DNA of 37,146 nucleotides from the NCBI GenBank assembly GCA_964580655.1, contig CAZOMR010000002.1:1-37146 (forward strand), written 5' to 3'. Below the pieces are notes generated by a model. It was given only the letters and a program-made list of their open reading frames with translations. It ran no database searches and had not been told where the DNA came from. Source of the stretch: an uncultured bacterium. GTDB taxonomy: Bacteria > RBG-13-61-14 > CAZOMR01. Numbering within the stretch: position 1 is the stretch's first letter; each line of letters begins with the position of its first letter. A program made the translations under genes and the position numbers. Positions 2,507 to 22,251 of the stretch are shown in pieces.

Positions 2507-2536
2507 ATTCGGTGCAACTTTTTTACAAGGGTGAGG
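2507..2536 (+). promoter_or_regulatory. 30-nt conserved element, copy A (ATTCGGTGCAAC-N6-ACAAGGGTGAGG)
   Basis: 27/30 identical to 7295-7324. It lies 9 nt upstream of the ATG at 2546, at the first + strand gene of the island. Confidence 0.6.
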
Positions 2537-2545
2537 GATAGAGTG

Positions 2546-2689
2546 ATGCAAAGGCGTCGTAGAAAACGGATTAAGCTTCTCTGGGATGAATACCGATTAA
2601 CCAAGCAATCGTCCGAAGGGCAATGGTGGTTGATCGCGGAGCCGGACCCTCCGGCCTGGTTTCTCAAACACGAGCTGAAAGTCCTATGA
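2546..2689 (+). CDS. small Arg-rich hypothetical protein (47 aa)
   Basis: ATG at 2546, preceded by GAGGG 7 nt upstream. Product is MQRRRRKRIKLLWDEY.... Its TGA overlaps the ATG at 2686 (ATGA), which suggests translational coupling to the next ORF. It is below the ORF-track size cut-off. Confidence 0.35.
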   Translation: MQRRRRKRIKLLWDEYRLTKQSSEGQWWLIAEPDPPAWFLKHELKVL

Positions 2690-3117
2690 CAACTGACTGG
2701 GAGCTTGGAGAGGATAAAAGCCCGGCTCTTTCGCATATAGAGGAGATTCTGAAGGAGCTGGAGGTGCTCAAGAGGGTTCATCTGCAGGCGCTTTTCGCGC
2801 GCGATGAATCCGGCGCAGTCGGGAAATCGGCCAGCCTGGATGACAGCCAGATAAAGAAGGTGACATCATATCTTAGCCTGGTGGAAAAGATGGTGAGGAT
2901 ACTTGAACGCCGGGAAAAAATACGAGAGAGCACGCTTCCAGGAGAAGCTCCGTTGAGCGTGGTGCTCCAGGTTCTGAGAGAGATTCCCTTATTCAGGGAC
3001 GCCCTGGACAATCCCGAGGTTCAGGAGCAAATTATGATTTTGCTACGAAAAAAGCTCTACGAGAAGAACCTGATGCAGGATGATGAGCCTAGGCCTGGAG
3101 GGGAGGATCAATCATAG
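2623..3117 (+). CDS. hypothetical helical protein; function unknown
   Basis: ORF-track ORF. The likely true start is the ATG at 2686 (MTTDWELGED..., 143 aa) because of the ATGA overlap with the upstream small ORF. The sequence looks alpha-helical or coiled. I recognise no motif. Confidence 0.5.
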   Translation: MVVDRGAGPSGLVSQTRAESPMTTDWELGEDKSPALSHIEEILKELEVLKRVHLQALFARDESGAVGKSASLDDSQIKKVTSYLSLVEKMVRILERREKIRESTLPGEAPLSVVLQVLREIPLFRDALDNPEVQEQIMILLRKKLYEKNLMQDDEPRPGGEDQS

Positions 3118-4340
3118 GAGCAGTTGCAGGATTGCTCTGGTCCGGGCAGACCCAGTTCACGGTGCATGTCCACCGTCTCTTTGCAGAGCCCGATCTTGTT
3201 GACCTTGAGCCGCTCCATGAAAAACTCATAGATTCGCTTCCGCTCATTGAAAGGAATCCGGATACGGTTGTCCGGGTCGTGTTGGTCCTGGCCATACTTG
3301 AATACCCCGGAGCCGTAGCGAGCGAATTTGAGCAGGTTCTTGAAATAGCGAAGCGTGCCCAGGGTTACTGTTTCCGGCTCAAGTTCATTGATAGGCTCGA
3401 TGAGCTCCTGGTAATATCGGGGCCAATCTTTGACAGGGATAATAGGATCAATGCGCAACCGCAAGGACCAGCCAGCGGCCTTGAGTTTTGCCGCGGCCTC
3501 AAGTCGCTTGAGCGGAGAGGGACTCCCCTTTTCGAACCGCCGGGATACCTCAGGTGCATTGATAGAAAAGCTGGTGATTACACGGTCGGTTGGAGAAAGC
3601 TTAAGCAGGTTTTTTATCTTTGTTGATTTAGTCAACATAAGCAGTTTGTGCCGCTTCTGGTCTGCGAAAAGCGGCACTATGTTCAAGCTAAACCCGGTAT
3701 CTTCATCCCAGACAAGGCTGTCAGACAACTCCCCCGAGTTAAGCATCGAGGGCTTCTGTTGCGAGATCAACCAGTCTCGTATCTCCTGAAACATGCGCGC
3801 CGTATTGGAGAAGACCGTAGGCGAGGGGTAATGCCGGAGGGTCAGATTCAAATAGCAATACTGGCATTCGTAAGGACAACCGTTGGCATGGGCGAGAATG
3901 AAAAAGTGGGGACACACGATCCCTTCAGGGGTCTTGTCAAAGTAGTGAATGAAGCGCGTATAGCGCTTGCGCTCGATAAACCCGGGCTTGATTCCCTTTT
4001 TGCCTCTGGGCACAAAGAGCTTCTGCTGTTTCTGCTCTATTCGCTTCTCCTCGCGCTCCTTTTTTTGGCGGTAAGTGCCCATGGTAACATGGGCCTTCCA
4101 GGCCCGGATACTGCCCTCCTTGAGCCCGAAATGTCTCGCCACATCGGGCAGGGCCATGTCCGGGTTCGCATCCATGAAATCCAGCACCGCCCACCGCAGG
4201 TCAGCGGCCATACGCTGATACTCCCGCTCCGATGCCTTTTCAAGCTCCCGGCGCAACTCCATCCCTGCTTCCTCTATCTCGGCCTCAGTCTGGGTTCTAT
4301 CCCAGTCCTTATCCTTCGAGTGTCCAGAATTATCCTTCAT
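3108..4340 (-). CDS. spore photoproduct lyase (SPL)-family radical SAM protein with N-terminal HTH-like extension
   Basis: CX3CX2C motif in HANGCPYECQYCYLNLT. Blocks LLMLTKS, SFSINAPEVSRRFEKGSPSPLKRLEAAAKLKAAGW and RIDPIIP align well with my recollection of Bacillus SplB (GCMGHCHYCYLQTT, RFSINADYV...GTSPLDKRIEAAVKVAKAGYPLG, VAPII). The first ~130 aa are extra: an acidic/coiled segment, an HTH-like LPDVARHFGLKEGSIRAWK, and a Lys/Arg-rich linker. Confidence 0.85.
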   Translation of the reverse strand: MKDNSGHSKDKDWDRTQTEAEIEEAGMELRRELEKASEREYQRMAADLRWAVLDFMDANPDMALPDVARHFGLKEGSIRAWKAHVTMGTYRQKKEREEKRIEQKQQKLFVPRGKKGIKPGFIERKRYTRFIHYFDKTPEGIVCPHFFILAHANGCPYECQYCYLNLTLRHYPSPTVFSNTARMFQEIRDWLISQQKPSMLNSGELSDSLVWDEDTGFSLNIVPLFADQKRHKLLMLTKSTKIKNLLKLSPTDRVITSFSINAPEVSRRFEKGSPSPLKRLEAAAKLKAAGWSLRLRIDPIIPVKDWPRYYQELIEPINELEPETVTLGTLRYFKNLLKFARYGSGVFKYGQDQHDPDNRIRIPFNERKRIYEFFMERLKVNKIGLCKETVDMHRELGLPGPEQSCNCSYD

Positions 4341-4429
4341 CGGCTATTCCTGCTTGATGGGAATGACCTCATTATTCAAAATCTCTGCTTATATGTCAAG
4401 GCTGAAAGTTTTATTTCAATCAAATTAAC

Positions 4430-5077
4430 ATGACGGAAAAAACTCAAACAGTTGACCACGGCAATAAATATCTCAAGCTCCTTTTGCGCAAGGCCATGCT
4501 TTCTCGCATTCATCCTCAAACTGCACTGGATTTATTCGCAGGCAGAGGGGAGATTGCCCGCGTATTGTATCAAGAATTCGAGGAGTTGTATTGCGTGGAA
4601 AAAGATTCGCGAAAATTCGCATCCCTGGAAAAAAACTTGCCAAGGGTCTCTAGCCCACGCATTCATCTTCACAGGATGGATAACCGCTTATTCCTGCAAA
4701 AGATGGTGAAGGATATTCCTCAAATCAACCTGGTAGATTTCGACGCCTATGGCTCGCCTAACCTTCAGGTCAAGACCTTCTTCGCCCACTACCGCCTGGA
4801 AGGACCGACCCTGATATTCGCCACCGATGGCGGCAAAATATCCTGTCAGCGAGGCCGCCGCTTTTCGCCCGGGCTTTACTCTTCATGTCCATATCCTTCG
4901 GGCTCAAACACCGGTGGCACTGGATACAACCCTGTCCTGGTACACGGATATGAAAAGCTCATCCGGCAATTCTGGCTCGAGATGGCACATACCCATAGCT
5001 TTCGCATAGAACTCTTCAAAATCCTCTGGAAGAAAGGGAAACAGGTAGCTTATTATGGACTCCTCATATCCCCCTGA
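4430..5077 (+). CDS. class I SAM-dependent methyltransferase (Trm1-like / TcmP-like); target unknown
   Basis: Motif I-like ALDLFAGRGEIARVL, then EKD, then LVDFDAYGSP, which resembles the DPFGS(P) motif of Trm1-type N-methyltransferases. It is divergent from the radical SAM gene across an 89-bp spacer. Confidence 0.6.
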   Translation: MTEKTQTVDHGNKYLKLLLRKAMLSRIHPQTALDLFAGRGEIARVLYQEFEELYCVEKDSRKFASLEKNLPRVSSPRIHLHRMDNRLFLQKMVKDIPQINLVDFDAYGSPNLQVKTFFAHYRLEGPTLIFATDGGKISCQRGRRFSPGLYSSCPYPSGSNTGGTGYNPVLVHGYEKLIRQFWLEMAHTHSFRIELFKILWKKGKQVAYYGLLISP

Positions 5078-5831
5078 TAAACCCGAAGGAACACCTTGTC
5101 CAGGCTCCAAGGCTTTAGTAACGGAGCAAGGAGAATTCCAGGGATTCTGCTTCCGGATGATCCCGACAGAGAAGCTCCGCCCAAACCCTTGGAACCCCAA
5201 CCGGATTTCTACGGAGAACTATCGAAAACTGAAAAACGCCATTGCCGAACGGGGAATGCTCAGTCCGATTCTTGTCAGGCCAAGAGAAAACTACTTTGAG
5301 ATCGTGGATGGCGAGCACCGCTTTAAAATCGCAAGGTCCCTGAAGATAAAAGAAATTCCCTGTTTCGTGGCAGAGCTGGCTGATACCGAGGCCAGGATCA
5401 AAACCCTTCAGCTCAATGGTCTGCGTGGTGAAAACGAGCCGGAAAAACTTGCCCGGCTCATCCAGGACCTGAACCTTGAATATGTGCTCGAAGACCTTGA
5501 GCAGGTCCTTCCCCTTGACCGCTATGACCTTCAGGCATCCCTGGACATGCTCGAACTCATGGAACAAAATGACCAGACAACCCGCCTTGAAGATGAAATG
5601 GAACAAATGCTCAAACAGGTTATCTTCTCCGTCGTGGTCACAAGGGAGCAGAAGAACCTCATTGAGCATGCACTGGCACAGATGCGCAAGTCCAGAGCAT
5701 CATCACCTGTCCGCCAAAGCCCTGCAAAGGCTGAAGCACAGGCAGAAGCTGAAAGCACTGATGATCATAAAATTCCAGAAGGCCAGCTGATTGCTGAAAT
5801 ATGTGAATTCTATCTCGCAGGAATAAAATGA
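5055..5831 (+). CDS. ParB N-terminal (ParB/Srx) domain protein in the small-terminase position
   Basis: IPTEKLRPNPWNPNRIS...LKNAIAERGMLSPILVRP...YFEIVDGEHRFKIA is a typical ParBc signature including the DGxHR box. The stop overlaps the terminase ATG (ATGA at 5828-5831). An alternative start is the ATG at 5157 (MIPTEKL). Confidence 0.8.
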   Translation: MDSSYPPDKPEGTPCPGSKALVTEQGEFQGFCFRMIPTEKLRPNPWNPNRISTENYRKLKNAIAERGMLSPILVRPRENYFEIVDGEHRFKIARSLKIKEIPCFVAELADTEARIKTLQLNGLRGENEPEKLARLIQDLNLEYVLEDLEQVLPLDRYDLQASLDMLELMEQNDQTTRLEDEMEQMLKQVIFSVVVTREQKNLIEHALAQMRKSRASSPVRQSPAKAEAQAEAESTDDHKIPEGQLIAEICEFYLAGIK

Positions 5832-7264
5832 AATACCTTTCCACCCGTCAGGCTGTTCTCAAAGAATGGCTGGAATTCTTTGAAATTCAAGCAGAGAGAA
5901 AAAATCTCGCCAACCCCTTCTGGTTCATTACAAGGGTGCTCAGGTATCAGCTCAAAGATTTTCATCGCCTCTGGTGGCTCTTCCAGGAAGAACATCCCAG
6001 CTCCCTGATCCTGGCCCCGCGCGGACACGGCAAGTCCACCATTCTTAATATCGCCTATTCTCTCTGGCACCTGATCCAGAATCCGGATATCAGGATTCTC
6101 ATCGTCTCCAACACACAGGCACAGGCACAGGCATTTCTCAGGGAGATCAAGCGTCACCTGGAAGGCAATCCCGACCTAAAAAAATATTACGGAAACCTCT
6201 GTGGCACACCCTGGAGTGAAAACGAAATTGACATCTCCGCACGCAGACTCATGACAAAGGAAGCCTCGGTCACGGCTATGGGCATGTACGGCCCCGTCAT
6301 CGCCCGGCATTATGACCTGATAATCCTTGATGATGTCATTGACGAAGAAAACGGATCAAGCGCCCGGCAACGCGCGAAAACCCTCATATGGTATTACAAG
6401 GAACTGCTTCCCACCCTGGAGCCGCACGGCAAGATACACCTCATCGGAACCCGCTATCACTACCTCGACCTCTATGGCCACCTCATGGAGCGGGAATTCA
6501 AGAAACACACACTGATCTCCCGCGCTATACAGCCGCCCACGCCCCAGAGCTTCGGAAATGGAGCAAGCGAGCAGAAAAAAGAAAAAGCGCTCTGGGAAGA
6601 AAAATTCTCCCTGGAGTTCTTGCTAAAGAAACGAGAGCAATCCGGATCAGCTATATTCAACTCACAGTATCAGAACGATGTGGAAGCCATGAAAGGGGCT
6701 ATATTCAAGGAAGAATGGATACAATACTTTGATATGCTTCCACCACAGCTCAACAAGTTCCAGGCCGTAGACCTGGCCATCAGCCAGCGCGAACATGCGG
6801 ACTACTTCGCACATGTCACAATAGGCCAGGATCACAATCAGTGTTTATATGTACTTGACGCTTTCCGCGGACGGCTGAGCTTTGAAAAACAATTCAGAAC
6901 CATCAAGCGGCTTTATCAGAAACATCATTGCCAGGACTCTCCTGTGCTTCGCATCGGGGTTGAAGCAAACGCCTATCAGGAGGCCATGGCACAAAAACTT
7001 CGCTCAGAAACAGGGCTCCCCGTGAAATCCGTGTTTCGCCATACTGATAAAATTACACGCGCATACCGGCTCCAGGCACAGTTTGAAAACGCGAAAATCT
7101 TCTTTCCGCACCAAGGCGCCGAGGACCTTATAGAGGAACTCTTGCTCTTTCCAGAAGCACCTCACGACGACCTCTTTGATGCCCTGGAGTGCGCGGCCTC
7201 TTTTGCTCAGAATGCAAATACCTACGAGCAAATATTCAGGCCATGGCCGGACGTCTCTCCGTAG
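5828..7264 (+). CDS. terL: terminase large subunit
   Basis: Walker A in ILAPRGHGKST, Walker B in DLIILDDVIDE, and a C-terminal nuclease-type HDDLFDALECA motif. 478 aa, located directly upstream of the portal gene. Confidence 0.9.
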   Translation: MKYLSTRQAVLKEWLEFFEIQAERKNLANPFWFITRVLRYQLKDFHRLWWLFQEEHPSSLILAPRGHGKSTILNIAYSLWHLIQNPDIRILIVSNTQAQAQAFLREIKRHLEGNPDLKKYYGNLCGTPWSENEIDISARRLMTKEASVTAMGMYGPVIARHYDLIILDDVIDEENGSSARQRAKTLIWYYKELLPTLEPHGKIHLIGTRYHYLDLYGHLMEREFKKHTLISRAIQPPTPQSFGNGASEQKKEKALWEEKFSLEFLLKKREQSGSAIFNSQYQNDVEAMKGAIFKEEWIQYFDMLPPQLNKFQAVDLAISQREHADYFAHVTIGQDHNQCLYVLDAFRGRLSFEKQFRTIKRLYQKHHCQDSPVLRIGVEANAYQEAMAQKLRSETGLPVKSVFRHTDKITRAYRLQAQFENAKIFFPHQGAEDLIEELLLFPEAPHDDLFDALECAASFAQNANTYEQIFRPWPDVSP

Positions 7265-7294: not shown

Positions 7295-7324
7295 ATTCGG
7301 TGCAACAAATTTACAAGGGTGAGG
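7295..7324 (+). promoter_or_regulatory. 30-nt conserved element, copy B
   Basis: ATTCGGTGCAACAAATTTACAAGGGTGAGG, 27/30 identical to 2507-2536. It sits in the 94-bp terminase-portal gap, 35 nt upstream of the portal GTG. Confidence 0.6.
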
Positions 7325-11374: not shown

Positions 11375-12136
11375 ATGAACCTGGCGGTTTGCATACCGGT
11401 AAGCTGGGATAAAGTCCCGACGGATTTTCTCATCGCCTTTTCTCGGTTGTTCAGGCCGGAGCAATTGAACGGGATGGAGCGACTGGGAGTGAAAAAATTC
11501 TGGCAGATTTTCAACCGCGTGTTTCCGCTGGACCTGAACCGGAACCGGCTAGGGCAAAAGAGCCTTGATCTAAAAGCTGATGCCATGCTTTTCCTCGATG
11601 CGGATATGACATTCCCCCCTGATCTGATCCCGCGTCTGATCCAGGATATGCGCGAGACCGGACCCGCTGTCATCAGCGGACTCTATTTCAAGAAAGCACC
11701 ACCGTTCCCGCCGGTAAGCGCCAACAAGATCTTCTCCCGCGATGAGCAGAAGATGTTCCCTGTCGAAATTGATTCCGGGCATCCAGACTCTATGGGCCAT
11801 CTGGTGGAATGCGATGTGGTGGGCATGGGCGCGGCCTTGATCTCCCGGGAAGTGCTGGAGGCAATCGCGCCGCCATGGTTCGAATACGAGGTCTACCAGA
11901 AGACCGGAGAGCGGACAGTTACCGAGGATGTCCCTTTTTGCAGAAAAGCGAAGCAGGCTGGCTTCAAGATTTACACCGATCTTGGTCTGGAATGCGGACA
12001 TATCACGGCCATCACTGTAACCCGGCGCCACTGGGAGGATCAGCGTCAAAAGATCATAGCCCGGACCGCTGGAGCGATTACTTCGTGGTTTTGCACAGGC
12101 CCAGGCGAATCTCAAGGAAAAGAAAATGGCCAATGA
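11375..12136 (+). CDS. family 2-like glycosyltransferase
   Basis: LFLDADMTFPPDLIPRLI (DxD region), VVGMGAALISREVLEAIAPPWFEY, and TEDVPFCRKAKQAGFKIYTDLGLECGHI (ED motif). This is the GT-A fold signature. Confidence 0.7.
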   Translation: MNLAVCIPVSWDKVPTDFLIAFSRLFRPEQLNGMERLGVKKFWQIFNRVFPLDLNRNRLGQKSLDLKADAMLFLDADMTFPPDLIPRLIQDMRETGPAVISGLYFKKAPPFPPVSANKIFSRDEQKMFPVEIDSGHPDSMGHLVECDVVGMGAALISREVLEAIAPPWFEYEVYQKTGERTVTEDVPFCRKAKQAGFKIYTDLGLECGHITAITVTRRHWEDQRQKIIARTAGAITSWFCTGPGESQGKENGQ

Positions 12137-21660: not shown

Positions 21661-22251
21661 ATGGAATTGATTATCATTGACCCGGGACACGGGGGCGATG
21701 ACCCTGGGGCTTTAAACATCGAACTCGGGCTGGAAGAAAAAGCCATTAACCTTGCCGTGGCACAAAAGCTATGGGCTCTGCTCTCAGGCCCATCTTGCGG
21801 AACACTAGTGAGGCTGACAAGAACCAGGGACATCTTTGTCTCGCTTTCGAGCAGGACTGATTATGCCAATCATCTCCAGGAATGTTTCCCGGAGACCAGG
21901 GCACTGTTTGTTTCCCTGCACTGCAATGCCTTTTCTGACCCGGCGGTCAGGGGAGTAGAGGTCTTCCATTATCCGGGTTCAAAATCAGGCCAGCGGCTTG
22001 GAGGATTTGTCCTGGATGCCATTACCAGGGCCTTCCCGGACATGCCATCACGCGGGCTGAAAACAAACCCGAATCTTGCGGTGCTGAGGAGAACCCGGAT
22101 GCCAGCGATCCTGATAGAAATGGAATTCATCTCTAACCCTGATACAGCTCGGCTTCTAGCCAGAGAGACCTTTCAGTGGCAAATGGCGCAAAGCATCCAG
22201 GCCGGAATCCAGTCCTGTCTCAAGCCCGAAGAGTCCGCAGGAATTAGCTGA
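21661..22251 (+). CDS. N-acetylmuramoyl-L-alanine amidase (Amidase_3) endolysin
   Basis: IIIDPGHGGDDPGA, EEKAINLAVA, LFVSLHCNAF, GVEVFHY and PAILIEMEFISNP are canonical Amidase_3 blocks. Confidence 0.9.
   Translation: MELIIIDPGHGGDDPGALNIELGLEEKAINLAVAQKLWALLSGPSCGTLVRLTRTRDIFVSLSSRTDYANHLQECFPETRALFVSLHCNAFSDPAVRGVEVFHYPGSKSGQRLGGFVLDAITRAFPDMPSRGLKTNPNLAVLRRTRMPAILIEMEFISNPDTARLLARETFQWQMAQSIQAGIQSCLKPEESAGIS

What the first reader, a model, noticed from the sequence alone, without database searches (positions are those of the whole stretch)
3108..5077. SPL-family radical SAM enzyme with an HTH extension, divergently paired with a Trm1/TcmP-like methyltransferase at the head of the packaging operon
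The only minus-strand gene of the island encodes a protein whose C-terminal ~280 aa match spore photoproduct lyase block for block. The matching blocks are GCPYECQYCYL, SFSINAPEV and SPSPLKRLEAAAKLKAAGW. The context has no sporulation connection.

The protein carries an extra ~130-aa N-terminus with an HTH-like LPDVARHFGLKEGSIRAWK and a basic linker. That predicts sequence- or structure-directed DNA binding.

In my from-memory alignment, the position of the Bacillus SPL H-atom-donor cysteine (EASCTSD) reads NSGELSD here, i.e. Glu. The Tyr after the third cluster Cys is kept. This alignment must be verified.

Across an 89-bp divergent spacer sits a SAM methyltransferase (LDLFAGRGE; VDFDAYGSP). 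It resembles Trm1-type enzymes and the TcmP partner proteins that accompany three-Cys radical-SAM-like phage proteins.

A radical SAM enzyme, a methyltransferase and a ParB nuclease-fold protein directly upstream of the terminase could be one of two things. It could be a repair function for packaged DNA, or an undescribed DNA modification or processing module tied to packaging.
Basis: partly seen in the sequence, partly recalled or inferred. Interest (0 to 1): 0.7.

Follow-up and report, generated by a model that had tools for sequence, protein, structure and literature searches.

The report
Phage radical-SAM, methyltransferase, ParB DNA-modification module
A defective-prophage-like element carries an uncharacterised trio of genes that most likely writes an unknown chemical mark on DNA: a DNA-binding radical SAM enzyme shaped like the repair enzyme spore photoproduct lyase, a small methyltransferase-like partner, and a ParB protein.

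Summary
ORF 3108-4340(-) encodes a 410-aa protein: an N-terminal helix-turn-helix domain, a basic linker and an SPL-fold radical SAM core. It is not an SPL orthologue: it scores 98 bits against NCBIfam's 400-bit cut-off.

It belongs to a distinct family of about 800 clusters at 50% identity. The family has seven near-invariant cysteines: CxxxCxxC, C143, and a C-terminal C-K-E...C-N-C. It also has a conserved Glu where Geobacillus SPL has its H-donor Cys140.

The 215-aa neighbour is a compact remote homologue of TcmP (hhalign 93%). Co-conservation is strong:
- rSAM lies upstream of 16/16 close methyltransferase homologues that have room for it.
- ParB lies downstream of 20/20.
- A TcmP-type partner is adjacent or fused in 63/87 rSAM loci.

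Family members are also fused to ParB, to an HsdS specificity domain inside a BcgI-like restriction-modification operon, to DuOB, and to HTH domains. These fusions point to DNA as the substrate.

My best reading (confidence about 0.5) is a site-directed DNA base-modification writer with unknown chemistry. Precedents are phage M6 gp53 and ParB-activated phage thymine dioxygenases. Repair, defence-effector and RNA-modification readings are not excluded. I rate it a new variant of a known kind.

The parts
3108..4340 (-). HTH-radical SAM protein, 410 aa. It is a member of a distinct SPL-fold family with seven conserved cysteines.
   Evidence: ORF. Pfam SPL 77.9 bits. Foldseek SPL E 4.6e-16. Family alignments A1/A2 and hallmark census over 269 members.
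3981..4340 (-). N-terminal extension, residues 1-120. It has an acidic start, a long helix (9-58), a tri-helical HTH (about residues 44-108, with the invariant motif RAWKAHxTMGTY) and a basic disordered linker (110-120).
   Evidence: AF2 secondary structure and pLDDT. 19/20 members hit HTH_Tnp_1, 14 hit HTH_23, 9 hit DUF1804 and 5 hit Terminase_5. N-terminal alignment A4.
3855..3878 (-). Radical SAM cluster motif C155-x3-C159-x2-C162 (CPYECQYC), followed by Y163.
   Evidence: The three Cys are essentially invariant across 269 members: C155 250/250, C159 249/251 and C162 253/253 of non-gap positions. Position 161 is Y or W and position 163 is Y or F.
3120..3185 (-). C-terminal motif C386-K387-E388 ... 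C405-N406-C407. Together with invariant C143 it is a candidate second metal or Fe-S site that SPL lacks.
   Evidence: Conservation: C386 255/255, C405 251/251, C407 243/245, C143 248/248. The 3D proximity of these cysteines could not be checked because no model coordinates were available.
4371..4399 (-). Sigma-70-type promoter for the rSAM gene: TTGACA, 17 nt, AATAAT (11 of 12 positions match).
   Evidence: Consensus scan. An equivalent TTGAC[AC]-16/17 nt-TAnAAT-like pair sits in the rSAM/MT spacer of 6 distinct related loci (L008, L009, L010, L011, L029=L088, L072) although the rest of the spacer has diverged.
4430..5077 (+). Compact TcmP-like class I SAM-dependent methyltransferase-fold protein, 215 aa. 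It is the first gene of the MT-ParB-TerL operon.
   Evidence: Invariant motifs D34xFxGxG40, E57, N85 and D103-F-D-A-Y-G-x-P110. hhalign to TcmP profile 93.3%, E 2.6e-7 over 174 columns. AF2 pLDDT 88. Foldseek hits to RNA methyltransferases and Trm1. PADLOC mad2 E 2.2e-8.
5055..5831 (+). ParB N-terminal-domain protein, 258 aa, with no recognisable ParB HTH. It overlaps MT by 23 nt and TerL by 4 nt.
   Evidence: Pfam ParB_N 57.7 bits. Directly downstream of 20/20 close MT homologues. Homologous ParB domains are fused to this rSAM family in at least 8 proteins.
5828..7264 (+). Large terminase. This is context: it is linked to the module only in this clade.
   Evidence: phrog_38 E 1e-107. TerL lies downstream in 12/14 MT loci with room and is absent in L102 and L114.
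2623..3117 (+). Small helical ORF convergent with the rSAM gene. The annotated product is 164 aa; the true start may be the ATG at 2686. It is a weakly conserved accessory gene of this clade.
   Evidence: Homologues in the same position in L008, L011, L029/L088, L089 and L094. No family hit.

Best explanation
The three genes form a DNA-directed modification module carried by a phage-derived element.

**Proposed mechanism**
1. The HTH-radical SAM enzyme binds DNA through its N-terminal HTH, helped in trans by the ParB protein.
2. It places a target nucleotide in an SPL-like active site.
3. It reductively cleaves SAM at the C155/C159/C162 [4Fe-4S] cluster and abstracts a hydrogen atom from a base.
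4. The Tyr163, Cys143 and Glu204 environment and a probable second metal site (C143/C386/C405/C407) complete the radical chemistry.
5. The TcmP-like partner uses a second SAM to add a methyl or related group. Its D-[P/A]-aromatic-G-S-P motif resembles that of exocyclic-amine methyltransferases such as Trm1 (recalled from memory). This step comes either before or after the radical step.

**Proposed outcome**
- The product is a non-canonical base that marks the element's DNA as self or hides it from restriction. The role is like that of orphan ParB-methyltransferases next to phage terminases.
- In cellular relatives the same pair is aimed by other DNA-targeting modules (HsdS, ParB-HTH, DuOB) inside R-M-like operons.

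**What is shown and what is inferred**
- Shown: folds, motifs, co-conservation, fusions and the promoter.
- Inferred: DNA as substrate, the order of steps, the second metal site, and the biological role.
- Unknown: the chemistry of the mark.
For: **Fold and catalytic motifs**
- SPL is by far the best structural match: E 4.6e-16, against 2e-5 for the next radical SAM enzyme.
- The cluster motif and both tyrosines are kept.

**Functional coupling of rSAM and partner**
- The MT family or canonical TcmP is adjacent or fused in 63/87 rSAM loci, including 12 TcmP-rSAM fusions.
- The two partner types are mutually exclusive and homologous (hhalign 93.3%).
- The reciprocal survey gives 16/16.

**ParB belongs to the module**
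- ParB lies downstream of 20/20 close MT homologues.
- ParB_N(-HTH) is fused to the rSAM at the N- or C-terminus in P0166, P0167, P0168, P0174, P0200, P0209, P0259 and P0260.

**DNA targeting**
- P0161 is an HsdS/MAD5-like specificity domain fused to the rSAM. It is followed by TcmP (E 2e-74) and preceded by a BcgI-like nuclease-N6-methyltransferase.
- DuOB fusions exist, as do HTH fusions.

**The methyltransferase looks active**
- Its SAM-binding motifs are invariant, so it is probably an active transferase.

**Published precedents**
- Phage M6 gp53 is an SPL-like radical SAM enzyme that isomerises glycinyl-thymine in DNA (PMC8989533). It is a distant relative of this family (hhalign 89.9%).
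- A phage ParB homologue activates a thymine dioxygenase on dsDNA. ParB (27%) and terminase (19%) are among the commonest neighbours of such enzymes (PMC13229309).
Against: - There is no experimental datum for any family member, and the modified base is unknown.
- 24/87 rSAM loci have no recognisable partner, and some of those sit among housekeeping genes.
- The rSAM gene has its own conserved sigma-70 promoter and points away from the late operon. That suits a lysogen-expressed moron or defence gene as well as it suits a late-acting modifier.
- The catalytic inventory of an SP-lyase-type repair enzyme may be intact, if Cys143 does occupy the clostridial donor position.
- TcmP-like proteins match candidate defence systems in PADLOC (PDC-M30A, PDC-M41A).
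- The best structural neighbours of the methyltransferase are RNA methyltransferases.
Confidence: 0.5

Rival explanations
1. The module is a defence or superinfection-exclusion system. The rSAM/TcmP-like pair, possibly with ParB, is expressed from the resident element. It damages invading DNA, or marks self DNA for a restriction partner. In this reading its main role is host or prophage immunity rather than protecting packaged DNA.
For: - The rSAM gene has a conserved constitutive-type promoter and is oriented like a moron.
- Relatives sit in defence islands: AbiEii, RadC, a BcgI-like RM enzyme, MNT/HEPN and Fic in L095; SIR2-STAND in L092; a GHKL ATPase plus DndB-like protein in L098.
- TcmP hits PADLOC candidate systems PDC-M30A and PDC-M41A, DuOB hits PDC-M45A, and MT hits mad2.
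- TcmP lies next to hna in S. meliloti (PMC12445080).
Against: - The rSAM itself has no PADLOC match.
- In the window there is no nuclease or other effector beside the trio.
- MT and ParB are translationally linked to the terminase operon.
- In the BcgI-like operon restriction and methylation are already provided by the 627-aa subunit. There the rSAM/TcmP pair looks more like an extra writer.
Confidence: 0.15
2. The rSAM protein is a genuine DNA-lesion lyase. It would repair spore-photoproduct-like or other thymine-methylene or cross-link lesions in densely packed DNA by the SPL mechanism, using Cys143 as a clostridial-type H-atom donor.
For: - SPL is the closest solved structure and the closest sequence family.
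- Both SPL tyrosines are kept.
- Invariant Cys143 aligns with Ser76 of Geobacillus SPL, the residue changed in the C140A/S76C variant 4rh0. From memory, that variant restores activity by mimicking clostridial SPL.
Against: - The score is far below the SPL equivalog cut-off, and the SPL N-terminal roughly 80 residues are missing.
- The Cys143/Ser76 alignment has low posterior probability and appears only against the S76C mutant chain.
- SPL needs no partner. Here a SAM-dependent transferase is adjacent or fused in 72% of loci.
- Three further invariant cysteines have no counterpart in SPL.
- The hosts are uncultured anaerobes and archaea from sediments and groundwater, not UV-exposed spore formers.
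- Fusion to an HsdS sequence-specificity domain makes no sense for lesion repair.
Confidence: 0.12
3. The module modifies RNA. The pair would act on tRNA or rRNA of the host or element, by analogy with Trm5 plus TYW1 or with other RNA methyltransferase and radical SAM pairs.
For: - The methyltransferase's best structural and HMM neighbours are RNA enzymes: RlmI-like Tt1595, Trm1, TYW2, RsmD and RrnaAD.
- Dehalococcoidia TcmP-rSAM fusions lie in a conserved chromosomal neighbourhood with MtnA-like and MTAP-like genes.
Against: - The fusions are to DNA-specific modules: ParB_N plus HTH_ParB, HsdS target-recognition domains, and HTH.
- Both characterised SPL-fold enzymes act on DNA.
- The phage, R-M and ParB contexts also point to DNA.
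Confidence: 0.08
4. The N-terminal HTH makes the protein mainly a regulator or a small-terminase-like recognition factor. It would bind the divergent promoter or a pac site, and the radical SAM domain would be secondary or sensory.
For: - The HTH resembles IS3-transposase and small-terminase-type HTHs (DUF1804, Terminase_5).
- No canonical small terminase is recognisable upstream of TerL.
- The gene sits at a divergent promoter.
Against: - All catalytic residues are under strict conservation.
- Most family members lack the HTH (194 of 263 have an N-terminal extension shorter than 60 residues).
- The similarity to terminase HTH families is weak (best E 0.003-0.04).
Confidence: 0.05

Closest known systems
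Spore photoproduct lyase (SplB; Geobacillus thermodenitrificans structures 4FHC/4FHF; TIGR04070)
   Same: - Partial TIM-barrel radical SAM fold (TM 0.67 over 283 columns).
- The C-x3-C-x-Y-C-Y-L cluster motif with both tyrosines.
- The T/S-S-D segment after strand 2, and the R-I/V-D-P segment.
- SPL acts on DNA.
   Different: - About 20% identity, and 98 bits against a 400-bit cut-off.
- Lacks the SPL N-terminal roughly 80 residues.
- Has Glu instead of Cys140.
- Has four additional invariant cysteines (C143 and C-K-E...C-N-C).
- Has an obligatory-looking methyltransferase-fold partner, and ParB, HsdS, HTH or DuOB fusions.
- No sporulation context.
Pseudomonas phage M6 gp53, an SPL-like radical SAM glycinyl-thymine isomerase of the 5-NedU DNA hypermodification pathway (PMC8989533)
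   Same: - A phage-encoded SPL-fold radical SAM enzyme that installs, rather than repairs, a DNA base modification.
- Detectable distant homology (hhalign 89.9%, E 1.7e-6, 164 columns).
   Different: - Only about 19% identity.
- gp53 lacks the GELSD and C-K-E...C-N-C hallmarks.
- gp53 works with an aGPT-Pplase amino-acid transferase, a 5-hmdU kinase and a PLP decarboxylase. None of these was found in the window.
[quoted passage not shown]
   Same: - The window's 215-aa protein is a remote homologue covering the whole domain.
- It occupies the same genomic slot beside the same rSAM family.
- TcmP itself has no described function in the searchable literature.
   Different: - It scores only 18.3 bits against a cut-off of 53.
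- It is 215 aa, against about 260-370 aa for TcmP.
- Its motif IV is D-A-Y-G-S-P rather than D-P-x-G.
- From memory, canonical TcmP was defined as the partner of a different three-Cys family (Gp37/Gp68, DUF5131). This was not tested here.
ParB-dependent phage thymine dioxygenases (5mYOX plus ParB; PMC13229309), and the ParB_N-DNA methyltransferase fusions of phages
   Same: - A ParB homologue without an obvious DNA-binding domain, encoded beside a post-replicative DNA-modifying enzyme and often near the terminase.
- The window ParB also hits ParB-methyltransferase fusion families (phrog_498, PADLOC MTase_II).
   Different: - The enzyme served here would be a radical SAM plus methyltransferase-fold pair, not an Fe/2OG dioxygenase or an N6/N4 methyltransferase.
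- The activator role of this ParB is inferred only.
Trm5 plus TYW1 logic in wyosine biosynthesis (my own knowledge; an analogy only)
   Same: A class I N-methyltransferase paired with a radical SAM enzyme that carries a three-Cys auxiliary cluster and an essential Lys. The radical SAM enzyme elaborates the methylated base.
   Different: - No homology was demonstrated.
- That pathway acts on tRNA.
- The auxiliary cluster here is hypothetical.

Membership tests
Spore photoproduct lyase orthologue (TIGR04070 equivalog) | Score at or above NCBIfam's curated equivalog cut-off over the full-length model | tested here: not met
   98.2 bits against a cut-off of 400. Only profile positions 81-252 of 338 are matched. 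Pfam match covers 82-258 of 338.
Spore photoproduct lyase orthologue (TIGR04070 equivalog) | Radical SAM CxxxCxxC motif with the two SPL tyrosines (Y96 and Y98 in Geobacillus numbering) | tested here: met
   CPYECQYCYL aligns with CMGHCHYCYL. The three Cys are essentially invariant; position 161 is Y or W and position 163 is Y or F in the family.
Spore photoproduct lyase orthologue (TIGR04070 equivalog) | H-atom-donor cysteine at the Bacillus/Geobacillus position (C141/C140) | tested here: not met
   The aligned residue is Glu204, both pairwise and by profile. It is Glu in 254 of 263 family members.
Spore photoproduct lyase orthologue (TIGR04070 equivalog) | Alternative clostridial-type donor cysteine (Ser76 position of Geobacillus SPL) | tested here: inconclusive
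   Invariant Cys143 aligns with the Cys of the S76C mutant chain 4rh0, but at low posterior probability. The alignment does not extend there for wild-type chains. 3D superposition was not possible.
Spore photoproduct lyase orthologue (TIGR04070 equivalog) | SPL three-dimensional fold | tested here: met
   Foldseek: 4fhf E 4.6e-16, TM (target) 0.67, 283 columns.
Spore photoproduct lyase orthologue (TIGR04070 equivalog) | SP lyase activity; occurrence in endospore formers | not testable with these tools
   No assay was possible. The hosts of homologues are MAGs of Planctomycetota, Zixibacteria, Dehalococcoidia, Thermoplasmata, Methanoperedens and others, which are not endospore formers.
Pfam SPL superfamily (PF20903) | Score above Pfam's gathering threshold | tested here: met
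   77.9 bits against 27.
TcmP (TIGR04474) | Score above the curated cut-off | tested here: not met
   18.3 bits against 53, E 0.0018.
TcmP (TIGR04474) | Homology to TcmP over the domain, and the same genomic partnership | tested here: met
   hhalign 93.3%, E 2.6e-7, 174 columns. MT and canonical TcmP are mutually exclusive neighbours or fusion partners of the same rSAM family.
Trm1 (tRNA m2,2G26 methyltransferase) | Match to the Trm1 family model, and the Trm1 C-terminal domain | tested here: not met
   No TRM family hit in Pfam or NCBIfam. The protein is 215 aa and has only the Rossmann domain. The fold resembles Aquifex Trm1 (E 2.9e-8, TM query 0.65). The D-x-aromatic-G-S-P motif resemblance is recalled from memory.
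ParB/Spo0J N-terminal domain family | ParB_N domain above the gathering threshold | tested here: met
   57.7 bits against 26.3, residues 33-117. No HTH_ParB was detected.
Phage thymidine-hypermodification cluster (M6 type) | SPL-like rSAM together with aGPT-Pplase, 5-hmdU DNA kinase and a PLP enzyme | tested here: not met
   Distant homology to gp53 only. No such partner domains were found among the window ORFs scanned.
Known anti-phage defence systems (PADLOC 2.0) | The rSAM protein matches a defence-system model | tested here: not met
   No hit for the rSAM. MT hits mad2 at 2.2e-8 over the SAM-binding half only. TcmP hits candidate systems PDC-M30A and PDC-M41A.

The most novel reading that the evidence does not exclude
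The rSAM/TcmP pair would be a new class of sequence-directed DNA 'writer' that uses radical chemistry.
- The TcmP-type enzyme installs an N-methyl (or related) group on a base.
- The seven-cysteine SPL-fold enzyme, carrying an auxiliary Fe-S cluster on C143/C386/C405/C407 and the invariant Lys387, elaborates that group into a hypermodified base. This follows the Trm5/TYW1 logic, transferred to DNA.
- Specificity comes from swappable modules: HsdS, ParB, HTH and DuOB.
- The result would be a previously unknown epigenetic mark, used both by R-M-like systems of anaerobic bacteria and archaea and by their phages at the packaging step.
Probability: 0.15. Interest if true: 0.88.

Novelty: new variant of a known kind. 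Interest (0 to 1): 0.68.

Why it matters
To my knowledge only two radical SAM activities on DNA have been characterised: SPL (repair) and M6 gp53 (isomerisation within a hypermodification pathway). If the reading is right, this family adds a third, widespread activity.

- The family has about 800 clusters at 50% identity and spans bacteria, archaea and their viruses.
- It has a dedicated SAM-dependent partner and interchangeable DNA-targeting domains.
- That would mean a new DNA base chemistry and a new type of self/non-self mark.
- It would give TcmP its first functional context. TcmP is a widely annotated but uncharacterised 'partner protein'.
- It would extend the newly described role of phage ParB homologues as cofactors of DNA-modifying enzymes.
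- It would also be of practical interest as a possible new site-specific DNA-labelling enzyme.

Tried and rejected
**Searches that gave little**
- A single-sequence scan of viral contigs found nothing. The profile scan found only 7 viral loci at 36-40% identity.
- A tblastn search of 50,697 GenBank phages gave one weak hit.
- BFVD has no close structure (best E 7.9e-9, TM 0.53). The family is essentially absent from cultured phages.
- PADLOC has no model for the rSAM.

**Literature**
- Six literature calls failed with time-outs (five searches, and one paper look-up; the failed searches counted against the cap).
- The searches that ran found no paper on TcmP function, on DuOB, or on SPL-like enzymes with ParB.
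- Two Aravind-lab surveys that I checked mention none of these proteins.
- Subscription-only papers are not covered.

**Tests I could not complete**
- I could not test whether C143, C386, C405 and C407 cluster in space, because model coordinates are not exposed.
- More distant MT-like proteins (about 30% identity or less, L119-L153) have no rSAM nearby. I therefore did not count them as the same family.

**Ideas rejected**
- 'Trm1 orthologue': no family hit, and the protein is a single domain.
- 'Canonical SPL': see the membership test.
- 'Chance ORF': E-values and conservation exclude it.

**Boundary search**
- No tRNA genes were found in the window.
- No flanking attachment-site-like direct repeats stood out for the element.

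Full report

Yes. The ORF listing gives 3108..4340(-) 410 aa, 4430..5077(+) 215 aa, 5055..5831(+) 258 aa and 5828..7264(+) 478 aa.
- MT and ParB overlap by 23 nt and ParB and TerL by 4 nt, so MT-ParB-TerL is one operon.
- The 410-aa protein passes Pfam's SPL threshold (PF20903, 77.9 bits against 27, residues 150-325).
- It matches Geobacillus SPL in the PDB at E 1.8e-13.
- The downstream genes are a ParB_N protein (57.7 bits) and a large terminase (phrog_38, E 1e-107).

**2. What the radical SAM protein is**

An AlphaFold2 model built on 118 homologues is confident (pLDDT 92.9).
- Its best PDB matches are the six SPL entries (E 4.6e-16 to 1e-14, TM about 0.66, about 283 columns).
- The next radical SAM enzyme, SuiB, scores 2e-5. 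The fold assignment is therefore secure.

Orthology to SPL is not supported.
- NCBIfam's SPL equivalog gives 98 bits against a cut-off of 400.
- Only the central part of the SPL model is matched.

A search of 5.8 billion proteins returned 629 relatives. An exhaustive profile search of 1.84 billion 50%-identity representatives gave 806 proteins at E<=1e-30. Across 269 members of every architecture, the following residues are essentially invariant:
- C143.
- C155, C159 and C162.
- An aromatic residue at 161, and Y or F at 163.
- G203 and E204 (254/263), and D207.
- K238, S259, E270 and R279.
- C386-K387-E388, and C405-N406-C407.

From my own knowledge, SPL has only the three cluster cysteines plus one donor cysteine. 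This is therefore a separate seven-cysteine family within the SPL superfamily. The four extra cysteines suggest a second metal or Fe-S site. I could not test their spatial proximity because coordinates are not exposed.

**3. The Cys/Glu question**

- The Glu is family-wide and follows an invariant Gly about 41 residues after the cluster motif. That is where radical SAM enzymes generally carry the 'GGE' SAM-binding motif (general knowledge, inference). It need not be a catalytic replacement for the cysteine.
- The profile alignment also puts the invariant C143 on the cysteine of the SPL C140A/S76C variant (4rh0). From memory, that variant mimics the clostridial donor position.
- That stretch has low posterior probability and is aligned only for the mutant chain. 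I treat this point as unresolved.

**4. The N-terminal extension**

The model shows a long helix (9-58), three short helices (64-108) and a disordered basic linker.
- Of 20 family N-termini scanned individually, 19 match HTH_Tnp_1 (best E 2e-6) and 14 match HTH_23.
- Smaller numbers match DUF1804 and Terminase_5.
- RAWKAHxTMGTY is invariant.

The HTH reading is supported. About 40 of the homologues have this extension, and most members have none.

**5. The methyltransferase-like partner**

The 215-aa protein has only weak family hits: Cons_hypoth95 at 6e-5, TcmP at 0.0018, and PADLOC mad2 at 2.2e-8. It has only 32 close relatives.
- Its SAM-binding motifs are invariant: D34xFxGxG40, E57, N85 and D103-F-D-A-Y-G-x-P.
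- The model (pLDDT 88) is a class I methyltransferase fold. The nearest structures are RlmI-like Tt1595 and Aquifex Trm1 (TM 0.65).
- A profile of the family aligns with a profile of canonical TcmP domains at 93.3% probability, E 2.6e-7, end to end.

It is therefore a compact, divergent TcmP relative. It is not a member by the curated threshold.

**6. Co-conservation**

I fetched 87 loci encoding rSAM relatives: 7 viral and 80 from GTDB genomes, the best 80 of 314 confirmed.
- All six loci of the HTH clade keep the arrangement rSAM <-> MT-ParB-TerL.
- The MT family is adjacent in 16 loci.
- Canonical TcmP is adjacent or fused in 45 loci, including 12 TcmP-rSAM fusions such as L071 (TIGR04474, 174.5 bits).
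- The two partner types never co-occur.
- With relaxed thresholds, 63 of 87 loci have a partner and 24 have none.

I then surveyed 55 metagenome loci found with the MT profile. Among the 20 close MT homologues:
- rSAM is divergently upstream in all 16 that have room.
- ParB is directly downstream in 20/20.
- TerL is downstream in 12 of 14 with room.

In a Mu-like prophage (L090) the MT <-> rSAM pair lies between head and tail genes rather than beside the terminase. The pair plus ParB is therefore the conserved unit. The terminase link is specific to this clade.

**7. Domain fusions point to DNA**

Long family members fall into these types:
- TcmP-rSAM.
- ParB_N(-HTH_ParB)-rSAM: P0166, P0167, P0168, P0174, P0200, P0209.
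- rSAM-ParB_N-HTH_ParB: P0259, P0260.
- DuOB-rSAM: P0005, P0008.
- XRE-type HTH-rSAM: P0184.
- P0161, which has an HsdS/MAD5-like specificity domain in front of the rSAM.

Two contexts are informative.
- P0161 sits in a defence island, in the operon [HSDR_N_2 + N6_Mtase + Eco57I, 627 aa] - [312 aa] - [HsdS-rSAM] - [TcmP, E 2e-74].
- P0167 (ParB-HTH-rSAM) lies beside a GHKL ATPase and a DndB-like protein.

A sequence-specificity subunit, ParB clamps and HTH domains are all DNA-targeting devices. This is the strongest evidence that the family acts on DNA at defined sites, and that the window's ParB is a working part of the module.

**8. Expression**

The spacer holds a near-consensus sigma-70 promoter facing the rSAM gene: TTGACA-17 nt-AATAAT at 4399..4371.
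- An equivalent hexamer pair is present in 6 distinct related loci although the rest of the spacer has diverged.
- No comparable promoter faces the MT operon.
- The rSAM gene is thus probably transcribed independently of the late operon. This is compatible with a moron or defence role and tempers the 'tied to packaging' idea.

**9. Literature**

TcmP appears in the searchable literature only as an annotation label. Nothing was found on DuOB or on SPL-like enzymes with ParB. Two precedents matter.
- Phage M6 gp53 is an SPL-like radical SAM enzyme that isomerises N-alpha-glycinyl-thymine in DNA. It was described as the first radical SAM enzyme installing a DNA modification (PMC8989533). gp53 is a distant relative of this family (hhalign 89.9%, E 1.7e-6) but lacks the family's hallmarks.
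[quoted passage not shown] ParB (27%) and terminases (19%) are among the commonest neighbours of such enzymes (PMC13229309).

The pattern 'DNA-modifying enzyme + ParB + terminase' is therefore established. This enzyme pair is not.

**10. Verdict**

The most likely explanation (about 0.5) is a DNA base-modification module with three parts:
- an HTH-targeted SPL-fold radical SAM enzyme,
- a TcmP-like SAM-dependent transferase, and
- a ParB cofactor.

Here it is carried by a phage-derived element. Elsewhere it is built into R-M-like systems. The chemistry is unknown.

The rival readings are a defence effector (0.15), a true lesion lyase (0.12), RNA modification (0.08) and a regulatory or small-terminase-like role for the HTH (0.05).

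I rate it a new variant of a known kind, with interest 0.68. The family is sizeable, unstudied, mechanistically suggestive and directly testable.

**Caveats**
- Locus ORFs were called with a simple script.
- The loci are a capped sample.
- No experiment exists for any member.

Noticed in passing
window 2508-2536 and 7296-7324 (+): A 29-nt intergenic direct repeat, TTCGGTGCAAC-N6-ACAAGGGTGAGG. It has exactly two copies, against 0 expected from shuffles. The copies lie just upstream of the first small ORFs of the block and just upstream of the portal gene, so they bracket orf164-rSAM-MT-ParB-TerL. It could be a late promoter or regulator site, or a cassette boundary. It is absent from all 154 fetched loci.
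   Followed up: partly
window 2531-2689 and 2623-3117 (+): A 52-aa basic ORF ends in an ATGA overlap with an internal ATG (2686) of the 164-aa ORF. The conserved small helical protein convergent with the rSAM gene may therefore really be 143 aa and translationally coupled to the upstream ORF. Weak homologues occupy the same position in L008, L011, L029/L088, L089 and L094.
   Followed up: partly
window about 2.5-22.3 kb: The phage-like block contains only packaging, head, tail and lysis genes: TerL, a putative portal, a Mu Gp36-like protein, lectin-like tail proteins, and an Amidase_3 at 21661-22251.
- No integrase, repressor, replication gene, tRNA or obvious att repeats were recognised.
- Host genes flank it on both sides: a pseudopilin and an ADP-forming acyl-CoA synthetase on the left, and MutS2 from 23385 on the right.
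- It may be a defective prophage or a gene-transfer-agent-like element.
- In L088 and L094 the TerL-ParB-MT/rSAM block is separated from the head genes.
   Followed up: partly
window 11375-12136 (+): A glycosyltransferase family 2-like ORF (Pfam 23.3 bits, exactly at threshold) sits between the capsid gene and the tail genes. Glycosyltransferases are the commonest partners of phage DNA hypermodification enzymes (PMC13229309). It could be related to the module or could glycosylate virion proteins.
   Followed up: no
L095 5183-11519 (JGI Ga0315547_1000025): Operon: BcgI-like nuclease/N6-methyltransferase (627 aa) - unknown 312 aa - HsdS-rSAM fusion (802 aa) - TcmP (365 aa). It lies in a defence island with AbiEii, RadC, MNT/HEPN and Fic. 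It appears to be a restriction-modification system whose specificity subunit is welded to the radical SAM enzyme.
   Followed up: partly
L098 330-7598 (JGI Ga0315279_10006412): A ParB_N-HTH_ParB-rSAM fusion is followed by a GHKL ATPase (HATPase_c_3), a PP_RS20740-family protein and a DndB-like protein. This may be another uncharacterised modification or restriction system.
   Followed up: no
L036, L040, L047, L050, L051, L061 (Dehalococcoidia): TcmP-rSAM pairs, fused or adjacent, are flanked by MtnA-like (methylthioribose-1-phosphate isomerase-like) and MTAP-like (methylthioadenosine phosphorylase-like) genes. These are enzymes of MTA and 5'-deoxyadenosine salvage. The arrangement may be simple synteny, or it may be a link to disposal of radical SAM by-products.
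   Followed up: no
L013, L016, L018, L020-L024 (Zixibacteria and relatives): A D12-class (Dam-like) N6-adenine DNA methyltransferase (98 bits) lies next to the MT <-> rSAM pair in this clade.
   Followed up: no
L089 2070-5055: Close relatives (61-64% identity) of the window's rSAM protein carry an N-terminal DuOB (dual OB) domain and are preceded by two DUF488 genes. MT-ParB is still divergently upstream.
   Followed up: no
L154 21686-22249 (phage M6, NC_007809): GenBank annotates M6 gp54 as 'terminase small subunit' and gp53 as 'DNA repair photolyase'. The literature shows they are a 5-hmdU DNA kinase and a glycinyl-thymine isomerase. This is a reminder that automatic 'spore photoproduct lyase' labels on this family (the JGI names) are unreliable.
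   Followed up: yes
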